NCBI GenBank assembly: GCA_026396285.1
Contig: JAPLXB010000045.1
Span: 343 to 64,342, forward strand
Source of the DNA: Candidatus Micrarchaeota archaeon
GTDB lineage: Archaea > Micrarchaeota > Micrarchaeia > Norongarragalinales > JAPLXB01
Direction of reading: 5' to 3'
Length of the DNA: 64,000 bases
The translations under genes and the position numbers were made by a program. The notes under the pieces were generated by a model. The model ran no database searches. It saw only the letters and a program-made list of their open reading frames with translations, and had not been told where the DNA came from. Shown here in pieces: positions 12,694 through 35,131 of this stretch; position 1 is the stretch's first letter; every line of letters begins with the position of its first letter.

Positions 12694-12720
12694 CGGAATA
12701 ACGAATACGGTTTTGGTGAA

Positions 12721-14562: not shown

Positions 14563-14563
14563 T

Positions 14564-17500: not shown

Positions 17501-17980
17501 AAGGGCATCGCGCGCGCCATCATCGTTGAAATGAACGGCGAACTGACGCTCGCCACCGAGGGAAGCAACCTTGAGGAAGTGTTCAAGATACCCGCAGTGG
17601 ACGCGGTGCGCACGAGCACGAACGACATTGTCGAGATATCCAAGGTGCTGGGCATAGAGGCTGCGCGCAACTCCATCATAACCGAGATAGTGAAAGTCCT
17701 CGATGCACAGGATTTGAAAGTGGACCTGAGGCACATCATGCTCATTGCCGACGCGATGACGCTCAAGGGCGAAGTGAAGTCAATCGGCCGCCACGGGCTG
17801 GCAGGCGAAAAGGCGTCTGTCCTGGCGCGCGCGGCGTTCGAGGAGACCGCGAAGCACTTGCTCAAGGCGTGCGTCTACGGCGAAAGCGACCCGCTGAAGG
17901 GGGTCACTGAAAACATAATCATCGGCCAGACCATTCCCTGCGGCACCGGGACAGTAAACCTGGAAATGGACGTCGACTAG
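14564..17980 (+). CDS. rpoA: DNA-directed RNA polymerase subunit A, unsplit (A' and A'' regions in one 1138-aa reading frame)
   Basis: N-terminal Zn motif CKTCGG..CGGHFGH. Catalytic NADFDGDEMN. Bridge helix AKTGYMQRRLINALQDMM. About 50 aa later, with no intervening stop, come the A''-specific AAQSIGEPGTQMTLRTFHYAGV and the C-terminal jaw/cleft. The probable true start is MKAISGIEFG at 14591. Confidence 0.85.
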   Translation: MIGCRCVFVMKAISGIEFGVFSPENVRKMSAVKVTVPDTYDEDGYPISGGLADQHLGVIDPGLKCKTCGGRMKTCGGHFGHIELVRPVVHVGFAKPVYLLLRATCRKCGRAMTAESIEKAKRISECPHCGEQQKTIKFVKPTSFYEEDRRVLPNEVRERLERITDEDLAAWGIKLRPEWMVLTILLVPPVTVRPSITLETGERSEDDLTHKLVDILRINQRLGENIDAGAPQLIIEDLWELLQYHVATFFDNETAGIPPARHRSGRQLKTLFQRLKGKEGRFRYNLSGKRVNFSARTVISPDPMLGINELGIPQEIAKELTLPVSVTEWNKENMKELVKANAEKINYIIRPDGRRKKLIPSNVDEIVAELAPGYVIERQLMDGDLVIFNRQPSLHRVSMMCHSVRVLPGKTFRFNVAVCAPYNADFDGDEMNIHVPQNEEAQSEADILMKVQDQILSPRNSEPLIAPILDQVSGLYLLTIDGTTFTRAEACSLLASAGIVEEVGGDKTTGKELFSFLLPKGFNVEYVNRSKEAVKIKNGKLLSGHVDSKISDLLTKQIFDDFGSEAARKFLDAATRISTEVITRYGLSLSLEDYHLSEEGVKEIRDIWRDGRKKVKSLVQQYREGKLERKPGKTLKETLEELVMNVLEHTRDSCGHHLLHHIKRVPLKAFGAPVNHNSALLMSRAGARGKLLNVVQMAALVGQQAVRGKRMKSGYKNRILPHFKKGDLGDDARGFVSSSYVEGLDPLQYFFHAAGGRDSVVDKGVNPAKTGYMQRRLINALQDMMVTPSRCVKDAEGSIIQFKYGDDGMDIAGKPISPGEPVGVVAAQSIGEPGTQMTLRTFHYAGVASLAQLGFTRLVEVVDARKTPKNPVMEVYLKKEYSKDLDKVKAIASSIEEITVDKIASVKEEFSKKLIRITLDTDALDEMKIKPEEVTEKIKAIEPATTRDKNVITVKTKAEDLKSIRKITTRLKEMTLKGIKGIARAIIVEMNGELTLATEGSNLEEVFKIPAVDAVRTSTNDIVEISKVLGIEAARNSIITEIVKVLDAQDLKVDLRHIMLIADAMTLKGEVKSIGRHGLAGEKASVLARAAFEETAKHLLKACVYGESDPLKGVTENIIIGQTIPCGTGTVNLEMDVD

Positions 17981-18053: not shown

Positions 18054-19229
18054 TTATTCCTTCGCGCGCGCGGCCGCGATTTTCTTGGACAGCGAGTCCA
18101 TGCCCGCCTTCTGCTCGATGAGCGTCTTCCCAAGAGCCACGACCGTGTCATAGAGCGCCTTGTCGAATTCAAGGGCAACCGACTGGGTGGACGAGAACGC
18201 CTTCATCATCTTCGCGAAATCGGCCATCGCGTTCCTCGTCGCCCGCGTGTCCTCCCTGACCGCCGACAACCCGGTTTCAAGGCGCTGGCGCATGCTCGTC
18301 ACGTCAATGAATGAGCGCAAACTGTCCAGTTTCTTCTCGTAAGCGGCGAAGTCGCCCTTGTCCGGGAGCCCCGCGAGCCTTGCATCGACGGCCTTTGACT
18401 GCGCCCTCAGCCCTGCCGCGGCCGACGCGAATTCCCTGGTGTTTTCCGCAACCACTTCTGTGAGGCCGGTCCTCAGCTCCTTTGCCGCTGCCGCGAATTC
18501 CTTGGTGTTTTCAGCCAATGCCTCGCTCAAGTCCGAGCGCAGCGCCTTCATTTCGCTCTTCAGGCCGCCGGCGGCTTCGGCGAACTCGTCGGAAGCCGAG
18601 GAAACAGTATCGTTTAATTTGCCCACTTGGGCAGCTGTCGGGAGCGCCGAAACCTTTTCCTGCAGCGCATCAACCTCCTTCAAAAGTTTTTCAACGGGCT
18701 TCCCGCTCTCTTCAAGGGTCTTGAGGATGTCCTTCCACTCCTCGCGCGACGGGAATTCCTTGAGTTTCTGAACCGACGCCGTCAGCTCCTGTTTCGTCGG
18801 CAGGGCCCCGATTGACTTATCCAACTCGTTCAAGTCGTCGCTGGTCGGCATCGCGAGGATTTTCTTGGAGACGCTGTCAATCGCCGTGCCCACGGACTGC
18901 ACTTGGGTCCTGAGCGCGTTCTTGTTGGCCTCCATCAGCACGTCAACGTCGCGCAAAAAGTCGTCAAAAGAAGTCTTGGAAGGCACGGTCTCCATGCGGG
19001 CTGAAATGATTTTCAGCGCGTTGGATGCGTCGCCCGCGCCGCGGGCCGCCGAGTCGGCGGCGTTGATTATTTTCTCGGAGGTTCCGGAAAAATCGCTTTC
19101 AAGAGCCGTTATTTTCTTCCCGGTCAAGTCGGATGACTTTTTCAACTCGTCCACGGACTCGGACAGGGCATCCACTTTTTTCACGAGCTCCAGGAAAGCC
19201 GCTTCAAGCCGCGCCAGAGTGTCAACCAA
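18054..19229 (-). CDS. coiled-coil protein with internal sequence repeats (391 aa), last gene of the giant-protein operon
   Basis: Almost entirely predicted alpha-helical with heptad character. The segment ENTKEFAAAAKELRTGL is repeated as ENTREFASAAAGLRAQ. No catalytic motifs. The gene is convergent with the rpoA stop. Confidence 0.5.
   Translation of the reverse strand: MVDTLARLEAAFLELVKKVDALSESVDELKKSSDLTGKKITALESDFSGTSEKIINAADSAARGAGDASNALKIISARMETVPSKTSFDDFLRDVDVLMEANKNALRTQVQSVGTAIDSVSKKILAMPTSDDLNELDKSIGALPTKQELTASVQKLKEFPSREEWKDILKTLEESGKPVEKLLKEVDALQEKVSALPTAAQVGKLNDTVSSASDEFAEAAGGLKSEMKALRSDLSEALAENTKEFAAAAKELRTGLTEVVAENTREFASAAAGLRAQSKAVDARLAGLPDKGDFAAYEKKLDSLRSFIDVTSMRQRLETGLSAVREDTRATRNAMADFAKMMKAFSSTQSVALEFDKALYDTVVALGKTLIEQKAGMDSLSKKIAAARAKE
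18412..18520. repeat. ~70-bp imperfect tandem duplication inside the coiled-coil CDS
   Basis: The unit CTGCCGCGGCCGACGCGAATTCCCTGGTGTTTTCCGCAAC (18412..18451) recurs as TTGCCGCTGCCGCGAATTCCTTGGTGTTTTCAGCCAATG (18482..18520). Confidence 0.4.
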
Positions 19230-19260
19230 CCAGACCAGTCCCCTCTAATCCCTGAAAGCC

Positions 19261-20121
19261 TCAGACGACTGTCGCGGGCTTCTTTTCACTGCCGCCGGCG
19301 CCCGCGGTTACCGGAGTTTTCCTAGCCGCTTCCTCCACTTTAGCCCTAAGTTGCGCGAGTTCCTTGGCCTGCGCAGTCTCCTTGATTTGGACCTTGAGCT
19401 GTTCCACGTCCCTTATCGTGTCGTTGATTTCGCGGAACATGCTCTTCACGTCGTTCGCCAGGCGCAGGTACTCTTCAAAACGTTTCTGGAACTCCACGAA
19501 AATGAATTCCACCTTGTCCGCGTGCTTTTCGGACTCGGCCTCAAGCTTCTTTATAGAAGAAAGCTCGCCCTTGACTTCCTCGTTCAGTTGCAGCAGCGTC
19601 TCCGTGCCCCTGGTCGCCATCAAGTCGTTCCTGACAATCTTCATTTCCTCCCCGAGCTTCTCCTCGATGGTCTCCACTTTTTCAACCATCCCCTTGACAA
19701 CCTCTATTTTCGCGTCAATTTTCTTGACGTCCATTGAGAGCTTTTCCGGCTGGACCGCCTCGACGAGGGCCGACGCCTTCTCCGCCTGCAGCTTCATTTC
19801 CCTGCCCGACTTTTCGCTCTCCAACAGCATTGCCCGCAATTCGCCTATTTCCTCGTTGAGCCGCGCGAATTTTTCGTCGGAAATCTGGCGGTACTGCTTC
19901 AGCGCCTCAATCTGGCCCCTGGCCAGCTCGAGGTCGCGTTCGAGCAGCGCAGCGCCCTTTGCCCCTCCCTGGCCCCTGCCGGGCTCGGGCTTTTCCTCTT
20001 CCTCGGGCGTGTATTTTTCCTCGCCGGAAACCATGGCCAAGTCGGTCATTGTTTCCAGTTCTTCCTCAGTGGGCCCTGTCTTTTTGGAAATCTTTTTCTT
20101 GATGGAATCCAGGAAACCCAT
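19261..20121 (-). CDS. acidic coiled-coil protein (286 aa)
   Basis: Short N-terminal amphipathic segment MGFLDSIKKKISKK, an acidic linker, then about 200 aa of heptad-repeat helix. This is reminiscent of ESCRT-III / PspA-like or archaellum-accessory coiled-coil proteins, but I make no confident family call. Confidence 0.45.
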   Translation of the reverse strand: MGFLDSIKKKISKKTGPTEEELETMTDLAMVSGEEKYTPEEEEKPEPGRGQGGAKGAALLERDLELARGQIEALKQYRQISDEKFARLNEEIGELRAMLLESEKSGREMKLQAEKASALVEAVQPEKLSMDVKKIDAKIEVVKGMVEKVETIEEKLGEEMKIVRNDLMATRGTETLLQLNEEVKGELSSIKKLEAESEKHADKVEFIFVEFQKRFEEYLRLANDVKSMFREINDTIRDVEQLKVQIKETAQAKELAQLRAKVEEAARKTPVTAGAGGSEKKPATVV

Positions 20122-20175
20122 TCCAACCCGCCCGGCGGCGTTGGCGCCGCCGCGTGCATTAATGCAGGCGGGCTT

Positions 20176-20418
20176 TTAATCGCTTTCCTCCACTTCGTTG
20201 ACGTTCCAGGCGCCGCACTTTGGGCACTTGGAGGGTTTTGAAAGCACGACCAGCCGCGAGTTGCCCCAGTCCTCCGGCTCAAGCAGATACTCGTTCCTGC
20301 ACCCGTGGCAAATCACGTAAATGCGGCTTATGCCGCTGGATCTCCCGACCGGGAACAGGTTGGTGCGCCCAATGCCAAGGAACCTGCCGAGCCCGGGCTG
20401 CCTGCCGATGAAAACCAT
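20176..20418 (-). CDS. small zinc-ribbon protein (about 80 aa from the internal ATG)
   Basis: Two CxxC pairs (CHGC ... CPKC) spaced about 40 aa apart. The upstream in-frame extension to 20544 is Gly/Ala/Arg-rich and probably not translated. Confidence 0.5.
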   Translation of the reverse strand: MVFIGRQPGLGRFLGIGRTNLFPVGRSSGISRIYVICHGCRNEYLLEPEDWGNSRLVVLSKPSKCPKCGAWNVNEVEESD

Positions 20419-20573
20419 TCTTTTCCTGCGCTTTTTTGCGGCCGGAAGGCGGCCTGCGGCGTGCCCGGGGCCGCGCCCCCCGTCCCATGCCAAGCCGTCG
20501 CCGGCGGCCGGTCCAGCGTCCCCTGCGCCTTTTTCGTCATCCACAAAACCGCCTTTTCCGGCCGGCGCCCCTT

Positions 20574-23500
20574 TCAGACGCCGTGCTTCTTCGCCTGCGT
20601 CTCCACCTTCTGGGTGAGGGACTCCATGTAAATGTCCACTATGTTGAACGCGCCTTTCTTGAGCTTGTCGCGGACGATGTTCAGTTCCAGTTCAAGGTCA
20701 AGCACGTCCACTCCCTTCGCTTTTATGGCGGCAACCTTCTCCTCCAGCACCTCTATCCGCTGGTTGTACTCGTCGTACTTCTGGAGCTCGGTTTCCGAAA
20801 GGCGGACGATGTTGTGCTGCAGCGCCCTGTAGGTCACGAAGTACGGCGCGCCCCTGTTGTACTCGGGGTTGTGCATCATGCCGCTCCCGATTGCGGACCG
20901 GACGATGCTCCTCGCGGTCTCGTCCCCGAACTTGGTCCTGATACGCTCCAAGTCGCCCTCGTACTTGGTGCGCATCTGGATTTCCGTGGAAATGTTTGCC
21001 TTGATTTCGCCCACGAAGTCGCTCAGCACCTGCGAAATGAGTACCAGGCCCAGGCCCCATTTCCTGTACTCCCTCGCCGCCCGCTCTATCTGCACGAGGC
21101 CCTCGCCGCTTCCCCCGAACTTGGGCAGCAGGCGGTGGACTTCGTCGTAAACGAACAGCACCTTGAGCTTCGGCGACTCCTCGGGCTGGCTGGCAAACAC
21201 CTGCTTGACCGTGTTGGCGTAGAAAGAGTCAACCTGCTGCGGCGTCAGCCGCGAAGTGACGAACACCGTTATTTCGCCGGGCCTCGTCAGTTTCTTGAGG
21301 TCAACCTGCTGGTCGGCGTTCTTGACTACGACGATGTTCCCGTCAAAGGCGCGCGCCTCGCTCAGCGACATCCCGAACTTCTTGTACGCCGCCAGCATCT
21401 CCCTGTTCTTCTGCGGCCTCAGGAAACCGCTCCACTGCGCGGTCGGGTCAAAGACGACCACCGCGATGCCTTTCTTGAGCGCCTCTTCCGCAATCACCTG
21501 CGCCGCCACCGTCTTTCCGGACCCGCTTCCTCCCGCGACCAGCGTGTGCATAGTGAGTTTTTGGAAGTCCACGAACGCCCGCACGTTCGTTTCCGCGATG
21601 AGGCCGAGGAACCCGCCGTCGGGCCCTGGCTGGGGCAGCGTCGCGAAGTCAATTTTCGACAAATACCTTTTCATCTTCGCCTTCTGGTACCGGTCGTAGT
21701 AAGCGTAACTCGTGCCGGCGGTCACTGCGGCTCCGGCGAGCAGCAGGTAGAACAGCGGGACGCCCATGAAACGCATTTCAAGCAGGCCAATCTGCACCTT
21801 GATGTTCGCGAACGCCGAAATCGCGCGCGTCGTGTTCAGGACAAGCCGGTAGTAGGCGGTCGCCTTGAGCATGTAAGTGCCGACCGCAAGGTCCGGCGGC
21901 ACCGTGATTGACTTCGTTATAGTCTGCGAGCTCTCGAACTCAAACGGGTCCCCTGACTCGAAAACCACCGCGTCAGTGTCGTAGTTTATCAGGTAGAGCC
22001 TGACGATGCCGCTGACGCTCTTGGTGGCGCCGGTGTTGAACAAGTTGAGGTCCACCTTGAAACTCTGGCCCGGCGACACGTCGGTCTGGTACGGGACTAG
22101 TTTCAAGTCAATGAACTTCTCCTTCGTCTCGCCAACGCGGATGGTGACTGGCATTACCGCCAAGCCGAGTTCGTTAGTGAAAATAATCTGGCCGTAGTAC
22201 ATGCCTGGTTTTGTGTCCTCGGGGATGCTGATTGCGGCCATTACCTCCGCGGTCTCTCCCGGCGCAAGGGTAACCGAAGGCCTGACCGAGAAGAACGGGA
22301 CCGTGTCGCCGGTCGCCTGGATTGCGACGGTGGTCGCGGAAGCGTTCTGGATGTTCTTCACGCGCAGGGTGACCATCGTCTCCTCGCCAAGGAGCAGTTC
22401 GAGGTAAATGGTCTGGGGATAAATATCGAGCCCGATTTTGTTCTCCATTCCTCCGGTCAGGTTCAGGACGGCTTCCAGCGTCTCGTTCGTGGAGTTCAGT
22501 ATCTCTCCCTTGGCCTGGGAAATGATTTTCTGGACTTCCTTCGCAATCTCCTCGAGCGACGGCCCGATTGCCCCCACCGCCATCGCCGGGGGAGCGGTAT
22601 ACCCTGGCTGAGCCCCTCCACCGCCGCCGTAAACGGTGACGTACGTCGCCCCGGGCGCCACGCCCAACACGCTCTCGCCGGCAGCGTAGGCGCTGAAACC
22701 GGTTATGACCACGGTTATCGAGCCCGGCATCCCTCCCTGCCTGCCGACGACGTTCGTCAACGAAATCCAGCCGCTCGGGCACGCGAGCGAAGTGAAGCCC
22801 CAGTCCGCGCACCGCGCCACGAACACGTTGTCAATGTTGTCGACCTGGGTCACGTCAAACGGCAGCGCCAGCGTGCCCGAAAACGACGGCGCCGGACGGC
22901 CGTCGGTGTAACTGAAGTTCAGCGCGAGGATGAACAGTTTCCTCATTGACGGCACGAGCGCCGCGTACACCGGAACCGAGTCTATGCCGATTGAAAGGTT
23001 CTCCATCTGCGAGAACGACACGCCCGACAACACGAGCGTCGCGTTCAACGCCTTTATCACCACGTCATAGGTCCTGTTGTAGACGTTGACCGAATAGTGG
23101 CCGGTCGCGTTAGTTGAGAAATTCGAGACTGTGACGTTTGTGCCGGGCCTGAGGAGCGTGAAGTTCGTCACCGTCCCCCCGCCAACGGAATTGGCTATGC
23201 GGCCCACGAAGTTCGCGATGTTGTAATAAACCTCGAACGGCGCGGAAACGTTGCGCTGGTTGCCGTCCAAGTCAGTCGCGGACACGACTGCGGTGTACCC
23301 GCCCAGGATGGAGAAGTTGGACGAGACCCTCCACGTGCCGCTCACAGTGTTCCCTGAAACCAGTGACATCGTGTGAGTGGTCACGGTGCTGTCCGGCCAC
23401 GTCACGAACGCGGTGACAGTCGAAACCTGCCTGTTGTCGGAAACGGCGGCTGAAACCACTGCGTTGCTTCCCTGCTGCGCGTCCGTGGTCGTCACGCTCA

Positions 23501-26500
23501 CCGACGGCTGCGTGATGTCCTTGTAGTAGAGGATTGACGCGTTCCTTCTGGTGAATATAACCGGCCCGTTCGGCGACGAGTAGTTTCCAATGACTACGAA
23601 ATCATAGAACTGCGCGTCGGTCTTGGACGGCGCAGTGAACGAAAGGATTTTGGAACTGCCCGCCGCGGTCATGTTGACTTGCGAGGCTTCGGTGTCGTTG
23701 ACGAACACGCGGTAGGTGACGTTTTCCGTGATGTCCGCCGGCGTGTAAAAGTCCACGAGCCGCACGGTGGCGTTGATTGAGTCGCCGGGAATGATTTGCG
23801 GCGGTGCGGAAACGCTTTCCAATAGTATTCCGTAGAAGAACGAGTTGAATGAGATGTTGACTTGCTTGTTGCCACTGCTTTCATTCACCTGCAGCACTCC
23901 TGCATAGTGGGCGTTGGTCTCATTGGCAGTGTAATTCATGCGAATGGCGAACGACTGGCCGCCTGAAAGCGACGTGGACGAGTCGAGCAGGTTCGCGAAC
24001 GTCGTCATGTTTCCAAACAGCCCGAACTGGAAGTTCAGGAACGCGTCAGCGGTACCGGTGTGCGTGATGACCGTGTCGCTGTTGACCTTGTTCTCGTTCG
24101 ACACCGCGTTTATGACCATGGTGTCGCGGCTGAGCGACCAGGAATAGTTCAAAGGCGTCACAACGTTTGCTGTGAATCCCTTCGTGTAGCCCGTTCCCTG
24201 CACGCTGCACGAAAAGCTCCTGCCCCCGACTCCCCCGCTGGAGGACACGCCATAGTCCACTCCGACGGTCGTGGATATGTTCACCGGGTTGTCCAAGGCG
24301 ACTGTCCGCGGCGAAGGCGAATAGGAAACCGTGACATTGGGGCTGATTGACGTGGTGGAGACTGCGAATGGAACGTTGTCGTTGCCCGTCGCCTCTACTG
24401 TGAGGTTTTGCACCGTGCTGTGGCCGTGCTCGATGGTCAGCGAAGCCGGGAACGTGACGGTGAAGTTCGGGTTGGACAAGACGCTTATCAAAACCGGGGA
24501 TGCCGTGTAAATGCCGCTGACGCCGTTCGGATTAACCCACTTGACTATTGGGTTGAAGTAGTAGGTTCCAAGGGCCCTGGGCGGCACGCTGACGTTGACG
24601 AACGTGCTGAACCAGCCCGGAGCGAGGTTCGCGTATGAAAGGTTCGTGTAACTGAAGCCGCTCGTGTTCGCGCCGCTGAACGAGCCGGTCACGTTCACCG
24701 AATAGCCCTTCACGTTGCCGCCGTTTACGATGAGAAACGGGATGGAAACGTTCTTTCCAACTGATTTCGTCACGTTCGCGACGCTCACCGCCTGGCCCGA
24801 GGCATTAATGTTCGTGGTGGGAACCACTTGGAACGAGAACTGCGTGGAATTAAGCTGGCCCGTGACGTCATTCACTCCAAAGGTCACGGCGTAGTCGTAA
24901 ACTCCCGTGATGTTCGTGTTGCCGAAGTCCACGTAAAACCTCCTGACGTCCTTGCAGAGGCCGCCGCAGTAGATGTCCGGGTCCTCCCAGTCGCTTGGGG
25001 GCGCAAAAGACCAGGAATAGCCGGGGGCCGTGACGTTGAAGAAGGCGGTCGAAGCGTTCAAGCCGTTGATTTCGTCGTCCGTGGCCCACACCTCAAGGGT
25101 GACGGACTTGTTGAATTCGACGAAACTCCTCCTAACTCCTTCCGTGATTGTTGACACGTTTATGAACTGGGGCGGCGCGTTGCTGACGTTGAAGAACACG
25201 TAAACGTCCCTGTTCGTCGGGTCCGCGGAACCGCTTTGCAAATGCGCCCTGATGCCATACCCGGGGGAGGCGTTGCTGCTCTCCTGGCCACTCTGGCCGA
25301 AGCAGATGTTTACAGAAGAGCCTTTTGAAACGGAAACCGTGTTGTTGTTGCAGTTGACTCCGCCGATGTTGATGTTCGGGCCGCACGTGCCTATGTAAGT
25401 GCAGTTCTTGTACCCGGGAACCGCGTCATACGACACCGAAAAGGTCAGGTCGATGTTTCCCGGGTTTTCAATGGTGTAATTTGCTATGATTCCCTTCTGG
25501 TTCAGCGCGAACGCGTTGGACTGGTTCGCGGACGGCACGATGACCCACGACGCGTTCGTGAGGACGTTGACGTTCACTTGAAGCGACTGGTTCACGTCCT
25601 GGCTCCCAGAGTAATACCCGGTCGTGTTCAGGAATCCATGGTATGCGCCGGGCGCCGCCTGGGCCGGGACCGACACGCTGAACGTCACGGTCTTCGTCGA
25701 GCCGGAGTTGGGAATCTTGGTGAAGCTCGTCCACTGGCTCGGGGAGAAGGAAATCCAAGAGGAGTTTATGGCGGTGGCAGTGAAGTTGTTGTTGACCGGG
25801 CCGAGCACAACGTTCCCGTCATTCGTCACCCCGATGGCTATTGTCTGCGACTGTCCCGGATACAAGTTCATGTCGAGCGAGGGAGTGATGTTGTATGACA
25901 GGTGCTTCGTCACCGCGCCGCCGATTTGCGTGGATGTGGTTATTGTCGTGTTGGATAAGTCGTTGTTCGTCCACGTCCCGTTCCAAGTCACCTGGTAATA
26001 CTGGCCCGGATTCAGCCCGGCGGGCAGCGTGACGTTGAAAACGCTGTAACAGTTGCCGCTCTGGATGAGTATGGCGCCGCACGTGGTGCCAAGTTCCACG
26101 ATAGACTCCATTAAGCCTATCTGGGACACGCCGATGTCCGGGTACGTCATGTCCGCCTTGTTGCTGTTGTTAAGACTAACAGTGATGTTCACTGAATAAG
26201 GCACGCTCGGCGTGTCAACGGTCGCGGGCGCGTTGAGCGTCCCGTCCGCCAGCTGTTCCTGGAACCAATCCTGGCCCGCCTTTTCTGCATAATCGTATTT
26301 CGTGCTGCTGTTGATGCCGGTCGCGAGTCGCCGGTCGAGTTGTAGAGCGTGATGCTCCGGGCGCCGTTCAACTGCGGCGCTGCCGACGCGTTGACCCACG
26401 TGATGTAAACCTCGTTCAGGAACGGCGTCTTGGAAGAGTCGTTTGAAGCGAAAACCGCGCGGTACCTCAGGTAACGCGAAACCGGTGCCTTGGCGAAGTC

Positions 26501-26633
26501 GCCGTAAAAGCCGCCGTACGCGGCAATCGTGGAAGAATTCGAATAGGAGTCGAGGGGCGTCCACTTGTAACTGTTGTTCGACGACGACGTGTACATGGTG
26601 ATGTTCGTTCCCGGCGGCTCGGTCGTCCACCAC
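20574..26633 (-). CDS. giant surface protein, C-terminal portion (ORF 2 of 2): Asn/Thr/Ser-rich Ig-like region, transmembrane helix, cytoplasmic HerA/FtsK-superfamily ATPase
   Basis: The first ~100 aa of the ORF (MVDDRAAGNEHHHVHVV...) are out-of-frame junk. Genuine sequence starts at ...ATGINSSTKYDYAEKAGQDW. A single hydrophobic helix GVPLFYLLLAGAAVTAG lies near the C-terminus. It is followed by a 379-aa cytoplasmic domain with Walker A LVAGGSGSGKT (21510..21533), Walker B VLFVYDEVH (21135..21158), and an arginine-finger region REYRKWGLGLVLISQ typical of DUF87/HerA/VirB4-like ATPases. Confidence 0.8.
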   Translation of the reverse strand: MVDDRAAGNEHHHVHVVVEQQLQVDAPRLLFEFFHDCRVRRLLRRLRQGTGFALPEVPRGFRFKRLFQDAVPERGLHHVGQRVGSAAVERRPEHHALQLDRRLATGINSSTKYDYAEKAGQDWFQEQLADGTLNAPATVDTPSVPYSVNITVSLNNSNKADMTYPDIGVSQIGLMESIVELGTTCGAILIQSGNCYSVFNVTLPAGLNPGQYYQVTWNGTWTNNDLSNTTITTSTQIGGAVTKHLSYNITPSLDMNLYPGQSQTIAIGVTNDGNVVLGPVNNNFTATAINSSWISFSPSQWTSFTKIPNSGSTKTVTFSVSVPAQAAPGAYHGFLNTTGYYSGSQDVNQSLQVNVNVLTNASWVIVPSANQSNAFALNQKGIIANYTIENPGNIDLTFSVSYDAVPGYKNCTYIGTCGPNINIGGVNCNNNTVSVSKGSSVNICFGQSGQESSNASPGYGIRAHLQSGSADPTNRDVYVFFNVSNAPPQFINVSTITEGVRRSFVEFNKSVTLEVWATDDEINGLNASTAFFNVTAPGYSWSFAPPSDWEDPDIYCGGLCKDVRRFYVDFGNTNITGVYDYAVTFGVNDVTGQLNSTQFSFQVVPTTNINASGQAVSVANVTKSVGKNVSIPFLIVNGGNVKGYSVNVTGSFSGANTSGFSYTNLSYANLAPGWFSTFVNVSVPPRALGTYYFNPIVKWVNPNGVSGIYTASPVLISVLSNPNFTVTFPASLTIEHGHSTVQNLTVEATGNDNVPFAVSTTSISPNVTVSYSPSPRTVALDNPVNISTTVGVDYGVSSSGGVGGRSFSCSVQGTGYTKGFTANVVTPLNYSWSLSRDTMVINAVSNENKVNSDTVITHTGTADAFLNFQFGLFGNMTTFANLLDSSTSLSGGQSFAIRMNYTANETNAHYAGVLQVNESSGNKQVNISFNSFFYGILLESVSAPPQIIPGDSINATVRLVDFYTPADITENVTYRVFVNDTEASQVNMTAAGSSKILSFTAPSKTDAQFYDFVVIGNYSSPNGPVIFTRRNASILYYKDITQPSVSVTTTDAQQGSNAVVSAAVSDNRQVSTVTAFVTWPDSTVTTHTMSLVSGNTVSGTWRVSSNFSILGGYTAVVSATDLDGNQRNVSAPFEVYYNIANFVGRIANSVGGGTVTNFTLLRPGTNVTVSNFSTNATGHYSVNVYNRTYDVVIKALNATLVLSGVSFSQMENLSIGIDSVPVYAALVPSMRKLFILALNFSYTDGRPAPSFSGTLALPFDVTQVDNIDNVFVARCADWGFTSLACPSGWISLTNVVGRQGGMPGSITVVITGFSAYAAGESVLGVAPGATYVTVYGGGGGAQPGYTAPPAMAVGAIGPSLEEIAKEVQKIISQAKGEILNSTNETLEAVLNLTGGMENKIGLDIYPQTIYLELLLGEETMVTLRVKNIQNASATTVAIQATGDTVPFFSVRPSVTLAPGETAEVMAAISIPEDTKPGMYYGQIIFTNELGLAVMPVTIRVGETKEKFIDLKLVPYQTDVSPGQSFKVDLNLFNTGATKSVSGIVRLYLINYDTDAVVFESGDPFEFESSQTITKSITVPPDLAVGTYMLKATAYYRLVLNTTRAISAFANIKVQIGLLEMRFMGVPLFYLLLAGAAVTAGTSYAYYDRYQKAKMKRYLSKIDFATLPQPGPDGGFLGLIAETNVRAFVDFQKLTMHTLVAGGSGSGKTVAAQVIAEEALKKGIAVVVFDPTAQWSGFLRPQKNREMLAAYKKFGMSLSEARAFDGNIVVVKNADQQVDLKKLTRPGEITVFVTSRLTPQQVDSFYANTVKQVFASQPEESPKLKVLFVYDEVHRLLPKFGGSGEGLVQIERAAREYRKWGLGLVLISQVLSDFVGEIKANISTEIQMRTKYEGDLERIRTKFGDETARSIVRSAIGSGMMHNPEYNRGAPYFVTYRALQHNIVRLSETELQKYDEYNQRIEVLEEKVAAIKAKGVDVLDLELELNIVRDKLKKGAFNIVDIYMESLTQKVETQAKKHGV

Positions 26634-29600
26634 TTAACCAAGTCCCAGTTCACTGCTTCGCCGGCGTCAATCGTGTGCTCGTAGTAGCCGGCAGTGTTCC
26701 CGGTTGAGAGGTTGATGTTTCCGGAGTTTATGGAGACGCTCGCATTCGAATAAGTTCCGCCGGTCCAGTCCGCGGAACCCGTTTCGGTGATGGTGTTGTT
26801 GGCCCACGAGTCGTTCCAGTAATACGCGCTGACGTTCACGTGCACGCCGCCGATGTCACTCCAAGTGGCGGTCTTGGCGAAGCCCGCAACCGTCGGCGGC
26901 GCCCAGGCGAAGAACGGGTCGGGCGAGTAAGTGCCGCTGCACTGGCGGCACGTGCGAGTGAAATTGATTGTGCCGTTTGTCCCGCTGCCCGACGGACTAT
27001 ACCCGCCGAGGGCGGTAACTGGACCGTAGTAAAGCAGCGAGGAGAACAACGCGTTTATTTTTCCGGCGTTACCGCCCGTGACAGTACTCCCGCCTTGTCC
27101 GCCGTTCGCATCAATAGTCTCAAAAATCAGCATGGTTCCGGTAAGGTTTACTGTCACGTTTCCTCCATTTCCTCCATATACCTTCCACTCAGTACTGCTG
27201 GCGCCGCATACCTTAATTTGATGCAAGTATGCGGTCTGTCCAGTCAACTCTACAGTTCCACCCGACCCGCAAACACTGGCAACAGTCCCACCACTATTCC
27301 ATCCCACGGCGCCAGTCGAAGTTATCGTCGTCAAGTTTATCGTCTGCGCCGCCACCCTAATCGCTCCTCCTGAGCCGCCATAGCCAGCATAGCCGCCAGC
27401 GCCAACGCCGTCTCCGCCAATTGATTTTATTTCAGTCCCATTTATCGCCTGGGCGATTACTGTAATGTTTCCAGTCCCTCCGCCATACGAGGTGCCAGCG
27501 CCATTCGTGCACTGCGCATAGCCTCCGACTGATTGAATGATCCCTAAGACCAGGATTTGAGACGAATTCATTAGTATGTTGCCTCCGCGCCCGCCATGGG
27601 CAAAGGAATATGTCCCGCTTGTGCTGCCGTAAGCGGCGCCTCCGCTCGAAGTTATGTTTGCCACTACGGTCTGCTGTGTGGAATTAATTGTTATAATTCC
27701 GCCTGAACCTCCATGGGGGTTGCCGCCGCCGGTATGATACGCTGACCCGCCATTAGACCTGACTAAGGTCGTTACGGTTATCGTCGGCGCTATCAGTTCG
27801 ACATTTCCTCCATCAGGCCCATAAACATCAAGTGGAGTGCCGTAGGAATACAAACCGGCTGAAACGTCTATTTGGGAAAGCCTAAGCGAACTGCCGGCGT
27901 TTATGTTCACGTCGCCTCCTTTGCCAGCGAGATAGTCGACTGCGCCGTTGGAATTGCCTCCGTTCGCGTTAACCGACGCCGCGGTGACATTGCCGGTCGC
28001 GTTTATTTTCAACGGGCCCCCCGGGCTGCCGGCTGTGGTTATCGTCGTGGCGTTTACCGAACCGTTCGCGTTAAACCTCACCGTTCCACCCGAACCGTAA
28101 CCGTAGGACGCACCAGATCCTCCTGATGTTGTTATTGTGCCCGCGTTTATTGTTCCGTTCGCGTTTATTGTGAGGTTTCCTCCCGCCCCCCCGAAGCCAT
28201 AGCCCGCTCCTCCTGTTGACGATATTGTTGAAACGTTTACTCCCCCGCCCGCGTTTATCGTGACCACGTCGGCATTACTCCCATCAAAAGCCGGAATAGC
28301 ACCATTTTTCGCTCCTCCGTCTGCAGCAATTGAATTGACTGTGACCTGGCCTGTTGCATTTATTGTCACTGCCCCTCCCTGACCAGTGTAGTACAGGCCG
28401 CCCTCGCTCGCCGTTCTAATGTTCGTGACTGTTACTGAGCCGTTCGCGTTTATCGTCAGCGGCCCTCCCGAGTAGCTTCCATCGTTGGCTGACGTGCCTG
28501 TTCTAGTTCCTGTTCCTATGTTCGTGGCTGTTACTGAGCCGTTCGCGTTAATCGTCACCGGCCCTCCAGAGCCGCCGTAGAAATCGGAGAGCTGCCCGTC
28601 TTCGGTTGATATCGTCGTGACGTTTATCGCGCCGTTCGCGTTCAGCGTTACGCTCCCGCCGCTGGACTGGTACCGGCCGCCGGCTCTCGCACTTATCAGG
28701 GAAGCTTTTATCGTGCCTGACGTGTTTATTTCAATGGAGCCACCATTCCCCCCGCCGGAGTTAAATTGTGAGCGGTTGCCGCCCATCGCCGTTATCGTGG
28801 TCACGTTCACTGGGCCGCTAGCGTTTAGCCTGATGCTTCCTCCAGACCCTGGATTATCCGGACCGGTTATGCCTGATGCGGTTATTGTCGTGCCGTTAAT
28901 TTGCTGCGCGTTTATGTCAATCGTGCCTCCATAATTGCCACGGCTCCGCGCGTCTATCGACGCTACATTGACCGCGCCCGTCGCGTTGATATAGACATTT
29001 CCCGGTAGTCCGTAACCGCTGAAAACAGTGTACTGATTTACTGTCGTTATCGTTCCTGCATTTATTGTCTGTGCAGTCAGACTGACATTTCCACTTCCTC
29101 CTGCTGCAGCGCCGTTTTTCTTGGTGGTGTCTATCGCATCCGGGTTTAAGGAATTTGCCCTGATTAAAAGATTGGTGCTGTGCGCGGTTATGCTGCCGGA
29201 GAACGTGTCCGAGGCATTCAAATGAACGTCTCCATAAGCCGGAATGCTTTGACTGCCGGTGAAGAAAAAGTTGCTGAAGGCCATGTTTGTTGAGTTGATG
29301 CCCAGCGGGTTCGAATCATGCCAAAACGACGATGAATAAAACGAGGCGTTCTGGTTCACCTGGAGCGACAGCGCCCCCGCAGAGTATACTGTCGCGCCGC
29401 CCGAGACGTTCAGGTACTCGTATGTCCTCGTCGCGGCCGCCATGTTGCACTGGATTCCATAGATTTTCGCGTTCGAGCCCTGGGCAGGCCCGCAGTTGAG
29501 CGAGTCGGGCTCGAGCCACGGCACGGCGTTAAATGACGGGTTGTTCGCGTAAAGCACGCTCGTGTCGTTTCCCTGCCAGTTGGGGAGGGTGAAGTAATAC

Positions 29601-31867
29601 GCGTCTGCCCCGGTCCAAGAGCCTCCTGGCGAGAACGACGTGGCGGCGAGGGAAACATTGACTATGTACCCGGTGCTGCCACTAACTACAGCGGTGGAGG
29701 AAAACGACGCGTTGGCCGCGGAAATGTCGATGTTGCCACCAGGGGAGGACCTGATAGTCCCCGCCTGATTGTAGTTGTTCGCAAAAAACCTTATCGAGTG
29801 AAGGTAGCCGCCTGACCCTTCGCCAACGAATCCGCCGTTTTCTATCGTCACGTTGCCGGAGAAATTGAAAGTGTGCGTGGTGTCGCTAACAAGGCCCGAG
29901 GTCCTGGTTATCCCCGCCCCGTTTTTGACGACGAGGTTGGTTCCGTTTATCGCGTAGTTTACGACCCTGATGTAGTGGAATTGGGTTATGTTGCACGTGT
30001 CCCCTCCCTCAAGGCTTCCTTGGTCGCACGCGAACACGGGAATCGTGAACTGGTCGATGAGCGAGAAGCTTGCATACCCGGTTTTTGAGCACGTGACGTT
30101 AAAGGACGCCGCGCCGTTCAGGTTGTTGGGGTTGACGGTCTTGTTGTACTCGTAAAGGCCCGAGGAGGCGTTGTAAGCCATGCTCGCGTCCGCGGCCCAC
30201 GAGCCGGCCGAGTTTTCGGAAAACAGGCACGTTGCGCCAGTGACTGGGTTGCCGGCAGCGCCCGTGTAATTCGCGTAAAACACTGGCTGGCGCGAGTAAT
30301 TCAACTGCTGTGCGATTGGGAGGTTTTCCATCGAGTCCCAAATCGCGAGGGCGGACGAGTAGTTTATCTGGAATGATACGTTGCTGACGACCGGGCTGGC
30401 CTGCGTGGAGTTGCTCGTGAGGTACATTTTGTACCGCATGTACCTCGCCTGGATTGGGGCCGAGGACGCGCTGGTTATCGCCTGGCCCGACGACGTGTAA
30501 TAGGCGGTCGGGTCAGCGAGCGGCCCGTGCCAGCCGTTCCACGTTACGCCATTGACTGAGTAATTGAGCTGGAAACTGAGGGCGGTGCCCGCCGGCACCA
30601 TGGCGTTGTAGAAGATTTTTTCCCACCTAACGCTGCTGCCGGCGTCGAAAGTGCTTGACTCGTAAGTGCCGTTCAGGTAATACCCCGGCGAACCGGTCGG
30701 GGTGTATGTCCACGTTTCGCCGTTGTTGCCGGTGGCGTTGTTTCCGCCGAACATGAGGAAAATCTTTTGCGCCGCGTAATACGCCATCGAGTGGTTCGCG
30801 CGCACAGGCGGCGGCGCCGGGTAAGTCACGTCAGACCACGTGTCGCCTCCCACGTCATAGGTGCGGATTGAATCAAGGTAACTTGCGCCGGTGTATCCGC
30901 CGAATTCAAGGAAAAGCCCCTGGTCTTGGTCAAACAACATTGTGTGGAACGCTTTCGCCCCCCCGGCTGCTTTCGCTCCCCAGGCGTTGGTGTTTGAATA
31001 GTATTCGCGCGTGTCGCTCAGGTAATCGGTTCCGTTGTATCCGCCGTCGAGTATGAACGTGCCTGAAGAAGTGGAGTATTCAAGCGCTGCGCCATAACGC
31101 GGCGAAGGCCAGTTTACTCCGAACGTCGTGTAGTTCACCCACGTGTTCTGCGTGAAATTGAATGCCCACAACTCGTTGAAAACGTTGGTGCCGTTGGTCC
31201 CGCCGAACAAGAAAATCGACTGGTTGGAGCCATGGTAAGCCATCGAGTAGTGATAGAGGGCTGGCGGGGATGCGGCGGGGCTGAGTAGCGTCCACGTGTT
31301 GTCCGAATAATTATAGGCCCACGTGTCGCTGAAAACGTTGGTGCCGTTCGTTCCGCCGAAAAGTATGATCCTGCCGCTGAGCGGGTCGTAAACCATTTTC
31401 ATGCCATAGCGCGGGGACGGGGCCGTGGACGGGTTGCGGTCAGTCCAGTTGTTGTTTGTGGAAAAATTATATGCCCGCGTGTCATTCAACGGGCCTGTGC
31501 CGTAGCCTCCGAACAACACCATGATTGCGGCGTTGTTTTCATAAGCCATTGCAAACGAGTTCCTGTCCGACGGCGAAGCCGCGGGCGTGAACTGCGTCCA
31601 GTTGACGAACTGCTTGAGCGTGAGGTTAGTGACTGAAACGTTCATCGTGTTGCTGAACGTGCCTTGGGTCCATTTCGCGGTGTCCTGGGACAGGTTTTTC
31701 AACGGCCCCTCCGCCATGAACAATCCGGTCACGGGGATGTTCACGCCCTCGAAATACTGGTAGAACAAGCCGATGCCGGCGACCACTGCGGCGCACGCTA
31801 ACACGATGGCAAGCCTCTTAGCCCACGGACTCTTGTTTCCACGTTTTTGGGGGGACATGCAGCCCAC
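26189..31867 (-). CDS. giant surface protein, N-terminal portion (ORF 1 of 2): signal anchor, Kelch beta-propeller, then Gly-rich beta-helix-like repeat array
   Basis: Signal-anchor helix LAIVLACAAVVAGIGLF. Five or six Kelch-like blades with F/LFGG and W-x-Y motifs (aa ~95..390). About 650 aa of ~30-aa repeats of the form GG.GG.VTINANG.V.VT.I.T. N-x-S/T sequons throughout. The last ~45 aa of this ORF (RPASTAARNTIMQKRRARIG...) are Arg-rich out-of-frame read-through. The true continuation is in the overlapping frame of the next ORF. Confidence 0.8.
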   Translation of the reverse strand: MGCMSPQKRGNKSPWAKRLAIVLACAAVVAGIGLFYQYFEGVNIPVTGLFMAEGPLKNLSQDTAKWTQGTFSNTMNVSVTNLTLKQFVNWTQFTPAASPSDRNSFAMAYENNAAIMVLFGGYGTGPLNDTRAYNFSTNNNWTDRNPSTAPSPRYGMKMVYDPLSGRIILFGGTNGTNVFSDTWAYNYSDNTWTLLSPAASPPALYHYSMAYHGSNQSIFLFGGTNGTNVFNELWAFNFTQNTWVNYTTFGVNWPSPRYGAALEYSTSSGTFILDGGYNGTDYLSDTREYYSNTNAWGAKAAGGAKAFHTMLFDQDQGLFLEFGGYTGASYLDSIRTYDVGGDTWSDVTYPAPPPVRANHSMAYYAAQKIFLMFGGNNATGNNGETWTYTPTGSPGYYLNGTYESSTFDAGSSVRWEKIFYNAMVPAGTALSFQLNYSVNGVTWNGWHGPLADPTAYYTSSGQAITSASSAPIQARYMRYKMYLTSNSTQASPVVSNVSFQINYSSALAIWDSMENLPIAQQLNYSRQPVFYANYTGAAGNPVTGATCLFSENSAGSWAADASMAYNASSGLYEYNKTVNPNNLNGAASFNVTCSKTGYASFSLIDQFTIPVFACDQGSLEGGDTCNITQFHYIRVVNYAINGTNLVVKNGAGITRTSGLVSDTTHTFNFSGNVTIENGGFVGEGSGGYLHSIRFFANNYNQAGTIRSSPGGNIDISAANASFSSTAVVSGSTGYIVNVSLAATSFSPGGSWTGADAYYFTLPNWQGNDTSVLYANNPSFNAVPWLEPDSLNCGPAQGSNAKIYGIQCNMAAATRTYEYLNVSGGATVYSAGALSLQVNQNASFYSSSFWHDSNPLGINSTNMAFSNFFFTGSQSIPAYGDVHLNASDTFSGSITAHSTNLLIRANSLNPDAIDTTKKNGAAAGGSGNVSLTAQTINAGTITTVNQYTVFSGYGLPGNVYINATGAVNVASIDARSRGNYGGTIDINAQQINGTTITASGITGPDNPGSGGSIRLNASGPVNVTTITAMGGNRSQFNSGGGNGGSIEINTSGTIKASLISARAGGRYQSSGGSVTLNANGAINVTTISTEDGQLSDFYGGSGGPVTINANGSVTATNIGTGTRTGTSANDGSYSGGPLTINANGSVTVTNIRTASEGGLYYTGQGGAVTINATGQVTVNSIAADGGAKNGAIPAFDGSNADVVTINAGGGVNVSTISSTGGAGYGFGGAGGNLTINANGTINAGTITTSGGSGASYGYGSGGTVRFNANGSVNATTITTAGSPGGPLKINATGNVTAASVNANGGNSNGAVDYLAGKGGDVNINAGSSLRLSQIDVSAGLYSYGTPLDVYGPDGGNVELIAPTITVTTLVRSNGGSAYHTGGGNPHGGSGGIITINSTQQTVVANITSSGGAAYGSTSGTYSFAHGGRGGNILMNSSQILVLGIIQSVGGYAQCTNGAGTSYGGGTGNITVIAQAINGTEIKSIGGDGVGAGGYAGYGGSGGAIRVAAQTINLTTITSTGAVGWNSGGTVASVCGSGGTVELTGQTAYLHQIKVCGASSTEWKVYGGNGGNVTVNLTGTMLIFETIDANGGQGGSTVTGGNAGKINALFSSLLYYGPVTALGGYSPSGSGTNGTINFTRTCRQCSGTYSPDPFFAWAPPTVAGFAKTATWSDIGGVHVNVSAYYWNDSWANNTITETGSADWTGGTYSNASVSINSGNINLSTGNTAGYYEHTIDAGEAVNWDLVKWWTTEPPGTNITMYTSSSNNSYKWTPLDSYSNSSTIAAYGGFYGDFAKAPVSRYLRYRAVFASNDSSKTPFLNEVYITWVNASAAPQLNGARSITLYNSTGDSRPASTAARNTIMQKRRARIGSRNSWRTGRSTRPRPLTRRACLIQ
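26950..29000. repeat. in-frame tandem repeat array (~30-aa Gly-rich beta-helix-like units) within the giant gene
   Basis: At least 20 successive units such as GGSVTLNANGAINVTTISTEDG, GGPVTINANGSVTATNIGTG and GGAVTINATGQVTVNSIAADGG. The DNA is correspondingly repetitive (many GGx GGx ... ACC ATC AAC GCx runs) and generates the spurious antisense ORFs at 27872..28126 and 28617..28934. Confidence 0.6.
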
Positions 31868-34377: not shown

Positions 34378-35031
34378 ATGGAAGGGCAGGAAAACGTTGA
34401 AAAGGGCAAAATCGCGGAACGCGGCGGAGAGACGAAACTCTTCGGCAAATACTCGTTCGAGGGCATTGAAGTCAGGGACCCGGGCATCAGGCAGTACGCG
34501 TCGTTCACGCCCGTCGTTTACCCGCACACTTTCGCGAGGCACGCCAACAAGCAGTTCGCGAAATCAAAGGTCAACGTGGTCGAACGGCTCGCGAACAAGC
34601 TCATGCGCGGCGGGACCGGCGGCAAGCTCGGCGGCAAACTCATACGCACGCACGGGAAGCTCCAGGGCAAGAAACTCCGCGTGCTGAAAATAATGGAGGA
34701 CGCGTTCGCCATCATACTCGCGCAGACCAAGCAGAACCCGGTCCAGGTTCTCGTGAGGGCGATTGAAAACAGCGCGCCCCGCGAGGACGTGACGAGCGTG
34801 CGCTTCGGCGGCATCGCCTACCAAGTCGCAGTCGACGTGGCCGCGCAGAGGCGGCTTGACATGGCGCTGAGGAACATCACGGTCGCGGCAATCATGGGCT
34901 CGTTCAACAAGAAGCCCACGCTGGCGGAGACGCTGGCGAACGAAATCATCCTCGCGGGCAAGGGCGACCCGAACAGCTACGCGATAAAGCGCAGGAACGA
35001 CACTGAGAGGATGTCGCGGAGCGCGAGATGA
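34378..35031 (+). CDS. rps7: 30S ribosomal protein S7 (uS7)
   Basis: Matches LFGKYSFEGIEVRDPGI...VNVVERLANKLMRGG...DVTSVRFGGIAYQVAVDVAAQRRLDMALRNI. Confidence 0.9.
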   Translation: MEGQENVEKGKIAERGGETKLFGKYSFEGIEVRDPGIRQYASFTPVVYPHTFARHANKQFAKSKVNVVERLANKLMRGGTGGKLGGKLIRTHGKLQGKKLRVLKIMEDAFAIILAQTKQNPVQVLVRAIENSAPREDVTSVRFGGIAYQVAVDVAAQRRLDMALRNITVAAIMGSFNKKPTLAETLANEIILAGKGDPNSYAIKRRNDTERMSRSAR

Positions 35032-35131
35032 TAATGGTTGCCAAGGCCGCAGGGGGCGCTGGCTCCCTGCTGGCGCGGAGCGCAAGGCAAGGAGTAAAAC
35101 GTCACTAAGCGTTTTTTTGAAGTGATTTTCC

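What the first reader, a model, noticed from the sequence alone, without database searches (positions are those of the whole stretch)
26316..26338. Single frameshift splits the giant gene into two overlapping ORFs at a short direct repeat
The upstream ORF carries genuine sequence to ...ITLYNSTGDS and then decays into Arg-rich nonsense. The downstream ORF starts with His/Arg-rich nonsense and becomes genuine at ATGINSSTKYDY. The two genuine frames meet within GCCGGTCG-CGAGTC-GCCGGTCG (direct repeat of GCCGGTCG at 26316..26323 and 26330..26337). This is either an assembly/indel error in a repetitive gene, or an authentic mutation. If authentic, it could be a phase-variation-like off switch that uncouples the ectodomain from its ATPase anchor, or a site of programmed frameshifting.
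Basis: seen in the sequence. Interest (0 to 1): 0.55.

Follow-up and report, generated by a model that had tools for sequence, protein, structure and literature searches.

The report
Out-of-frame deletion breaking a giant archaeal gene
A roughly 3,800-codon surface-protein gene of a Micrarchaeota archaeon is split into two overlapping reading frames by what looks like a ~94-base out-of-frame deletion, which is an ordinary gene lesion (or an assembly fault) and not a programmed frameshift or an on/off switch.

Summary
On the minus strand, ORF1 (31867..26189) and ORF2 (26633..20574) overlap by 445 nt, with ORF2 in the -1 frame. Codon statistics and homology both put the switch of coding frame at 26322-26327, between two copies of GCCGGTCG.

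The break is more than a one-base indel. Ten homologues, four of them from Micrarchaeota genomes, read through this point in a single frame. All ten carry a conserved 31-32-residue segment (K-x-C...C...P-x-x-L-x-x-G-N-Y-[ST]) that the window lacks exactly at the junction. One deletion of about 94 nt (length 3n+1) explains both the missing segment and the frame change.

In 26 of 30 related archaeal loci the ORF that holds the ATPase stays open to the upstream end of the DNA held, up to 3,775 codons. None showed a split like the window's.

There is no slippery heptamer, no homopolymer or repeat tract, and no unusual RNA structure. The 8-mer is a common in-frame Thr-Gly coding word in this gene.

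Best reading: a recent, authentic truncating deletion or strain variant (about 0.6). An assembly artefact is about 0.3. Recoding and phase variation are each about 0.03. The finding is of low interest; the conserved gene family itself is the more notable part.

The parts
26189..31867 (-). ORF1, the N-terminal half of the giant gene. NCBI protein MCX6768009.1 starts at the ATG at 31858. The sequence is genuine down to 26324.
   Evidence: Kelch repeats lie at 31525..30716. The N-terminal membrane or signal anchor is at 31813..31751, the Gly-rich beta-helix-like repeats at 29092..26972, and a jelly-roll-like domain at 26689..26381.
26189..26323 (-). Out-of-frame tail of ORF1: 44 Arg-rich codons plus the stop codon at 26191..26189.
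   Evidence: Codon log-likelihood is negative. The tail has 27% Arg and no sequons, and no homology to any relative.
26322..26327 (-). Frame junction. The last genuine ORF1 codon is TCG (Ser1848) at 26326..26324. The first genuine ORF2 codon is GCG (Ala104) at 26324..26322. About 31-32 conserved codons present in all relatives are missing here.
26316..26337 (.). Direct repeat GCCGGTCG, 6 nt, GCCGGTCG. On the coding strand this reads CGACCGGC GACTCG CGACCGGC. Each copy encodes x-Thr-Gly in its own genuine frame.
26325..26633 (-). Out-of-frame lead of ORF2: 103 His/Arg-rich codons from the GTG at 26633. It overlaps genuine ORF1 coding sequence.
20574..26324 (-). Genuine part of ORF2: about 1,520 aa of glycosylation-rich ectodomain, a membrane helix at 21770..21696, and a HerA/FtsK-like ATPase at 21674..20574 (NCBI MCX6768008.1). 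Walker A is at 21533..21510 and Walker B at 21152..21126.
19261..20121 (-). A 286-aa gene with no Pfam family, immediately downstream of the giant gene. It is conserved in the same position in related loci.
   Evidence: 37-44% identity in L001, L003-L009 and L011, directly after the giant ORF

Best explanation
The two ORFs are halves of one ancestral gene of about 3,800 codons.

**What the gene encodes.** It belongs to a family of giant, heavily N-glycosylated surface proteins found widely in DPANN archaea. The layout is an N-terminal membrane anchor, a huge ectodomain, a C-terminal membrane helix, and a cytoplasmic HerA/FtsK-like (DUF87/DUF853) ATPase.

**What happened.** In this Micrarchaeota genome the gene carries an internal deletion of about 94 nt (length 3n+1). 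The deletion lies inside a small conserved cysteine-containing domain. It removed about 31 codons and put everything downstream in the -1 frame.

**Consequence (inferred).** Translation from the ORF1 start would read 1,848 genuine residues, then 44 nonsense residues, and stop at 26189-26191. The product would be an N-terminally anchored protein with the Kelch and beta-helix parts only. The remaining ~1,900 codons (ectodomain, membrane helix, ATPase) would not be made as part of it. The sequence after the junction has no start codon followed by a signal peptide, so the rest of the ectodomain cannot be made and exported on its own.

**Age (inferred).** The downstream 1,916 codons are still open, keep their codon bias, and have intact Walker motifs. 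The lesion is therefore recent, or it is one allele within the sampled population.

**The 8-mer.** The two copies of CGACCGGC are most simply two pre-existing in-frame x-Thr-Gly coding words, one on each side of the deleted segment. The deletion brought them to 14 nt apart and out of phase.

**Shown versus inferred.** Shown: the frame break, its position, the missing conserved segment, and the intact single frame in relatives. Inferred: a single deletion event, its size, that it exists in the cells, and the effect on the protein.
For: 1. Position of the break.
2. One ancestral gene. The fused protein is collinear with P0122 (5286 aa), with one gapped alignment across the junction (query 1632-2086, E = 3e-32). 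It is also collinear with P0128 and P0141 and with Micrarchaeota loci L003, L004, L005 and L009 (query ~1655-2084 in one frame).
3. Missing segment. P0122, P0128, P0134, P0141, P0146, P0150, L003, L004, L005 and L009 all have the 31-33-column block with two Cys and G-N-Y-[ST]. The window has a gap there, and the gap falls exactly at the frame junction.
4. Relatives are intact. In 16 of 16 archaeal genome loci, and in 10 of 14 metagenome loci, the ORF holding the ATPase is open to the upstream end of the DNA held, up to 3,775 codons. L011 holds a complete 3,404-codon ORF.
5. Orthology. The downstream 286-aa gene is conserved in the same position.
6. No recoding signals.
7. This is the only frame break of its kind in 64 kb, so the assembly is not generally error-ridden with indels.
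8. The missing segment is not encoded anywhere else in the window.
9. The ATPase is well preserved: 100% identical to NCBI's protein call and 61% identical to the nearest other family member, with DUF87 and HerA_C above Pfam's cut-offs.
Against: - No reads and no close relative are available. The nearest relatives are only about 36% identical over the ectodomain and 68% or less over the ATPase. A lesion in the cells cannot be told apart from a lesion introduced by assembly or binning.
- At this divergence the lineage might have lost the 31-aa segment in frame long ago and acquired a separate small indel later. For example, an extra CG in AACTCGACCGGC / GACTCG[CG]ACCGGC would restore N-S-T-G-D-S-T-G-I-N if removed.
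- The long open, well-conserved downstream frame fits an artefact as well as it fits a recent mutation.
Confidence: 0.6

Rival explanations
1. Assembly or consensus artefact. The organism has an intact gene, and the contig lost about 94 nt (or gained or lost 1-2 nt) during metagenome assembly, bubble merging between strains, or polishing.
For: - The source is a metagenome-assembled genome: NCBI 'MAG: Candidatus Micrarchaeota archaeon', contig of 64,874 nt.
- The gene is long and internally repetitive.
- The downstream 1,916 codons show no decay at all, and the ATPase motifs are intact.
- Every relative examined is uninterrupted at this point.
Against: - It is the only frame break of this kind in 64 kb, so there is no general indel noise.
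- The site is neither a homopolymer nor a long repeat.
- The only local repeat is 8 nt, far shorter than assembler k-mers. A de Bruijn-graph collapse would need a much longer repeat flanking the lost segment.
- The junction sequence is unique in the window.
- If strain bubbles were merged, the shorter path would still be a real allele in the population.
Confidence: 0.3
2. Programmed recoding makes the full-length protein. This could be a -1 ribosomal frameshift at TCG|GCG. It could also be a 14-nt translational hop, in which peptidyl-tRNA-Gly leaves the first ACC GGC and lands on the second, giving ...LYNSTG-INSSTKYDY...
For: - Matching take-off and landing codons exist. An identical 8-mer sits 14 nt apart, and removing 14 nt restores the frame exactly (direct reading of the sequence).
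- The downstream frame is fully preserved.
Against: - There is no X XXY YYZ slippery heptamer anywhere in the 445-nt overlap, and no homopolymer of 5 or more bases.
- The codon after the putative take-off codon is GAC, not a stop codon.
- There is no stimulatory RNA structure (z = 0.25; 118 of 200 shuffles fold at least as well).
- None of the relatives has a frame change here.
- Any recoded product would still lack the conserved 31-aa core of the domain. That marks damage rather than design.
- The 8-mer is a frequent Thr-Gly coding word in this gene.
Confidence: 0.03
3. A phase-variation-like reversible switch. The site toggles between in-frame and out-of-frame states in the population, uncoupling the outer part of the ectodomain from its ATPase-anchored remainder.
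For: - Giant surface proteins are typical targets of variation (general knowledge).
- A short direct repeat sits at the junction.
- The downstream frame is preserved.
Against: - There is no simple-sequence tract. CG occurs only twice, and the 12/14-nt unit is present only about 1.6 times and imperfectly.
- A ~94-nt deletion is not reversible.
- None of the 26 related loci whose ORF stays open to the upstream end of the DNA held shows a break.
- There is no invertible element or recombinase next to the gene (ORF list; neighbouring genes).
Confidence: 0.03

Closest known systems
Ordinary frameshifted (split) gene or young pseudogene caused by an out-of-frame deletion
   Same: Two overlapping ORFs together match single-ORF homologues. 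There is nonsense sequence after the break in one frame and before it in the other. A conserved segment is missing at the break. No recoding signals are present.
   Different: The downstream half shows no secondary decay. The lesion is therefore very recent, or limited to part of the population, or an artefact. The host gene is unusually large (about 11.3 kb).
Programmed -1 ribosomal frameshifting (bacterial dnaX; archaeal fucA1 of Saccharolobus solfataricus; from my own knowledge)
   Same: The shift is -1, with a long overlap between the two frames.
   Different: There is no slippery heptamer, no stimulatory structure and no conservation in orthologues.
Translational bypassing (phage T4 gene 60; 'byp' elements in Magnusiomyces mitochondria; from my own knowledge)
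   Same: Identical candidate take-off and landing codons (ACC GGC) flank a short gap of non-triplet length (14 nt).
   Different: There is no stop codon after the take-off codon, no take-off hairpin and no conservation. The gap is far shorter than known bypass gaps, and a conserved protein segment is missing.
Slipped-strand phase variation of surface proteins (Neisseria, Haemophilus and Campylobacter contingency loci; from my own knowledge)
   Same: The target is a surface protein gene, and the reading frame is switched off by an indel.
   Different: There is no homopolymer or multi-copy short tandem repeat, and relatives show no variation at the site.
DPANN family of membrane-anchored DUF87/DUF853 (HerA/FtsK-like) ATPases with an N-terminal ectodomain. 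This is the gene family that carries the lesion.
   Same: The C-terminal membrane helix plus ATPase is 45-68% identical to hundreds of DPANN proteins. Giant members of 2,500-5,300 aa share a collinear ectodomain and a conserved downstream partner gene.
   Different: This copy is broken. Its N-terminal part carries Kelch repeats that did not align with the three complete giant homologues I compared. Many family members are short, at 400-730 aa.

Membership tests
Programmed -1 ribosomal frameshift site | Slippery heptamer X XXY YYZ in the zero frame at the shift site | tested here: not met
   No such heptamer in any phase within 26189..26640. The sequence at the junction is GGC GAC TCG CGA CCG.
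Programmed -1 ribosomal frameshift site | Stimulatory RNA structure a few nucleotides downstream | tested here: not met
   The 121-nt RNA around the site has MFE -30.8 kcal/mol against a shuffle mean of -31.5, z = 0.25.
Programmed -1 ribosomal frameshift site | The frame change is conserved in orthologues | tested here: not met
   Ten homologues read through in one frame. In 26 of 30 related loci the ORF is open to the upstream end of the DNA held.
Translational bypassing (gene 60 type) | Matching take-off and landing codons flanking the gap | tested here: met
   ACC GGC occurs at both ends of a 14-nt step, and removing 14 nt joins the two genuine frames.
Translational bypassing (gene 60 type) | A stop or slowly decoded codon just after the take-off codon, and a take-off hairpin | tested here: not met
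   The next codon is GAC. No significant structure is predicted.
Simple-sequence phase-variation locus | A hypermutable homopolymer or multi-copy short tandem repeat inside the coding sequence | tested here: not met
   No homopolymer of 5 or more bases in the overlap. The only repeat is an 8-mer present twice.
Simple-sequence phase-variation locus | A mixture of on and off alleles in the population | not testable with these tools
   No reads are available, and no second assembly of this population was found.
Frameshifted gene or pseudogene | Adjacent ORFs in different frames that together match one continuous homologue | tested here: met
Frameshifted gene or pseudogene | The lesion is present in the organism's DNA and not only in the assembly | not testable with these tools
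   This needs read mapping or PCR.
DUF87/DUF853 HerA-like membrane ATPase family of DPANN archaea | DUF87 and HerA_C domains with Walker A and B motifs, preceded by a membrane helix | tested here: met
   PF01935 scores 42.4 bits (cut-off 23.2) and PF05872 scores 31 bits (cut-off 22). There are 351 homologues, the best 120 at E <= 7.6e-115.

The most novel reading that the evidence does not exclude
The break is real and is read through. In this reading the ribosome hops 14 nt between the two identical ACC GGC codon pairs, or shifts -1 at TCG/GCG. The cell then makes both a truncated protein (Kelch and beta-helix parts) and, at low frequency, the full-length ATPase-anchored protein. This would be the first translational bypass, or a non-canonical frameshift, described in a DPANN archaeon.
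Probability: 0.03. Interest if true: 0.8.

Novelty: already known. Interest (0 to 1): 0.18.

Why it matters
The value is mostly practical. The public annotation lists ORF1 as a 1,889-aa hypothetical protein and the ATPase as a stand-alone 366-aa protein. About 4.6 kb of conserved coding sequence between them has no protein in the collections searched. Anyone counting giant genes or studying this family in DPANN archaea would misread this locus.

If read mapping shows the deletion is real, it is a snapshot of very recent loss or truncation of a giant surface protein in an episymbiotic archaeon. That bears on how fast such genes turn over. It does not open a new mechanism.

The more interesting biology is the family itself, which is conserved across DPANN and, as far as I could find, uncharacterised. 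Its members are giant ectodomains tied to a cytoplasmic HerA/FtsK-like ATPase, with a conserved partner gene downstream.

Tried and rejected
- **Word-indexed protein search, junction region:** no hits. That tool listed no protein longer than 726 aa, even for the ATPase. It seems to miss giant proteins, so this negative result says little.
- **Exact-protein contig look-ups, NCBI ORF1 and ATPase:** not on record, so no independent assembly (for example Logan) could be compared.
- **Junction protein against genome and metagenome collections:** no close relatives.
- **ATPase as query:** relatives found, but none closer than 68% identity. The exact ancestral sequence at the junction could not be reconstructed.
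- **Missing segment encoded elsewhere in the window?** No.
- **A 14-nt tandem duplication as the cause:** only 8 of the 14 positions repeat, so this is not a clean duplication.
- **A 12-nt tandem unit with an extra CG:** still possible as the source of the frame change, but it does not explain the missing 31 aa.
- **ORF2 as an independent gene:** rejected. Its first 103 codons are nonsense that overlaps genuine ORF1 coding sequence, and no start codon with a signal peptide follows the junction.
- **Literature search on giant HerA-linked DPANN proteins:** nothing relevant.

Full report
**1. What is there**

The feature lies on the minus strand. ORF1 runs 31867..26189 (1892 codons) and ORF2 runs 26633..20574 (2019 codons). 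They overlap by 445 nt, and ORF2 is in the -1 (= +2) frame relative to ORF1.

The coding strand at the site reads CTC TAC AAC TCG ACC GGC GAC TCG CGA CCG GCA. The 8-mer CGACCGGC appears twice, 14 nt apart. On the plus strand this is GCCGGTCG at 26316 and 26330.

**2. Source of the window**

The window comes from a 64,874-nt contig of a 'Candidatus Micrarchaeota archaeon' metagenome-assembled genome. NCBI lists ORF1 as hypothetical protein MCX6768009.1 (1889 aa, locus tag NTY90_04770). Only the last 366 codons of ORF2 are listed, as DUF853 protein MCX6768008.1.

**3. Checking the observation**

- A codon-usage log-likelihood scan shows ORF1's frame coding down to about 26324 and ORF2's frame coding from about 26327. 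Each frame scores strongly negative beyond that point.
- No other ORF pair in the window switches coding frame inside an overlap.
- The out-of-frame stretches differ sharply in composition from the genuine parts. They have 27% and 16.5% Arg against about 2%, and no N-x-S/T sequons against about 4 per 100 aa.

**4. What the gene is**

ORF1 begins with a membrane or signal anchor. It continues with Kelch repeats, long Gly-rich beta-helix-like repeats, and a jelly-roll-like domain.

ORF2 continues with about 1,500 aa of Ig-like, sequon-rich ectodomain. It then has one membrane helix and a HerA/FtsK-like ATPase, with DUF87 and HerA_C above Pfam's cut-offs and both Walker motifs present.

The membrane helix plus ATPase has hundreds of homologues at 45-68% identity in Micrarchaeota, Nanoarchaeota, Woesearchaeota, Pacearchaeota, Aenigmatarchaeota and Altiarchaeales.

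An exhaustive profile-free search of 1.84 billion representative proteins, using a fused junction query, found giant single-chain homologues. They are P0122 (5286 aa), P0128 (3381 aa) and P0141 (2538 aa), all ending in the same membrane helix and ATPase. The fused window protein is collinear with P0122, including one alignment that crosses the junction.

**5. Related loci**

Scanning species-representative genomes and JGI metagenomes with the ATPase gave 36 loci.

- In all 16 archaeal genome loci examined, the ORF holding the ATPase stays open to the upstream end of the DNA held, up to 3,775 codons. L011 holds a complete 3,404-codon ORF.
- The same is true for 10 of 14 metagenome loci. The other four are short ORFs of 424-1131 codons. 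Their lengths fit the short family members, but I did not check them for frame breaks.
- Stand-alone ATPases of 402-417 aa exist elsewhere. They do not have a neighbouring ectodomain gene split off from them.
- The 286-aa gene just downstream of the window's giant gene is conserved in the same position in L001, L003-L009 and L011. This supports orthology.

**6. The key result**

Alignments were made of the junction region against P0122, P0128, P0134, P0141, P0146 and P0150, and against the Micrarchaeota loci L003, L004, L005 and L009. Every relative has a conserved block of 31-33 residues, for example TLTKSCTTLNGNCTVGFLFPAELKGGNYSVN in L003.

This block sits between the sequence that matches the window's ...SITLYNSTGDS and the sequence that matches ATGINSSTKYDY. 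The window has a gap there, exactly at the frame junction. tblastn with P0122 shows the same thing in DNA terms.

The segment is not encoded anywhere else in the window.

A single deletion of length 3n+1, about 94 nt, accounts for both the missing segment and the -1 phase.

**7. The direct repeat**

Each copy of the 8-mer encodes x-Thr-Gly in its own genuine frame. Relatives have similar residues at both positions.

ACC GGC is used in frame 12 times in this gene, and the 8-mer occurs five times in it. Short direct repeats at this spacing are common in the window: 29 observed against 13 expected.

I read the two copies as pre-existing coding words that the deletion brought next to each other. 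I do not read them as the cause of the break.

Other local scenarios would also restore the frame: a 2-nt CG insertion in a 12-nt quasi-tandem unit, a 1-nt loss, or a 14-nt insertion. None of them explains the missing 31 residues.

**8. Recoding and phase variation**

- The overlap has no X XXY YYZ heptamer and no homopolymer of 5 or more bases.
- The RNA around the site folds no better than shuffled sequence (z = 0.25).
- The codon after the putative take-off codon is GAC, not a stop.
- No relative has a frame change here.
- Any recoded product would still lack the core of a conserved domain.
- There is no simple-sequence tract that could toggle, and a ~94-nt deletion is not reversible.

**9. 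Real mutation or artefact**

This cannot be settled without reads.

Points favouring a real allele:
- It is the only such break in 64 kb.
- The sequence context is not error-prone.
- The local repeat, at 8 nt, is far too short to cause a graph mis-join.

Points favouring an artefact, or at most a very young lesion:
- The downstream 1,916 codons are perfectly preserved.
- The source is a metagenome bin.

My estimates are about 0.6 for an authentic recent deletion or strain variant, about 0.3 for an artefact, and about 0.03 each for recoding and for a reversible switch.

**10. Verdict**

The programmed-frameshift and phase-variation ideas are not supported.

This is an ordinary kind of lesion in an interesting, poorly characterised gene family.

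Noticed in passing
window 19261-20121 (-); L001 22326-24218; L003-L009 and L011 just after the giant ORF: A gene with no Pfam family (286 aa here, 630 aa in L001) always follows the giant ATPase-anchored gene. Identity is 37-44% among Micrarchaeota and weaker in Aenigmatarchaeota and Pacearchaeota. This looks like a conserved two-gene module of unknown function.
   Followed up: partly
window 21675-26188 (-): About 4.5 kb of conserved, open coding sequence has no protein in the collections searched. NCBI lists only ORF1 and a 366-aa ATPase, with consecutive accession numbers. The ATPase protein starts just after its own membrane helix, so it is listed without its anchor.
   Followed up: partly
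window 707-768 (+): Rfam finds a tRNA-like sequence (35.3 bits, anticodon loop CUGUUAA, so GUU = Asn). Only 6 nt stand where the 17-nt T arm should be. ARAGORN finds no tRNA anywhere in the window. It may be a truncated or unusual tRNA, or a tRNA fragment.
   Followed up: partly
window 11140-17980 (+), 18054-31867 (-), 34378-37321 (+): The giant gene, its partner gene and a 391-aa coiled-coil gene lie on the opposite strand between the RNA polymerase genes (two ORFs of 517 and 613 aa, assumed rpoB, and an Rpb1-like ORF) and the ribosomal protein S7 and EF-2 genes. This reads like an insertion into the usually conserved archaeal rpo-str gene cluster.
   Followed up: no
window 14564-17980 (+): A single 1138-aa ORF carries Rpb1 domains 1 to 5. 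From my own knowledge, the archaeal large RNA polymerase subunit is usually split into A' and A''. This one may be fused or compacted.
   Followed up: no
L040 1451-8839 and 10001-11254; L038 10001-11209: The ATPase family also has short stand-alone members of 402-417 aa. One genome has a 2462-aa giant member and a 417-aa short paralogue about 1.2 kb apart. Another has a short member followed by a 500-aa TPR protein.
   Followed up: partly
L022, L028, L030, L031: Four metagenome loci have the ATPase in shorter ORFs of 424-1131 codons. I did not check whether any of these are themselves broken giant genes rather than natural short forms.
   Followed up: no
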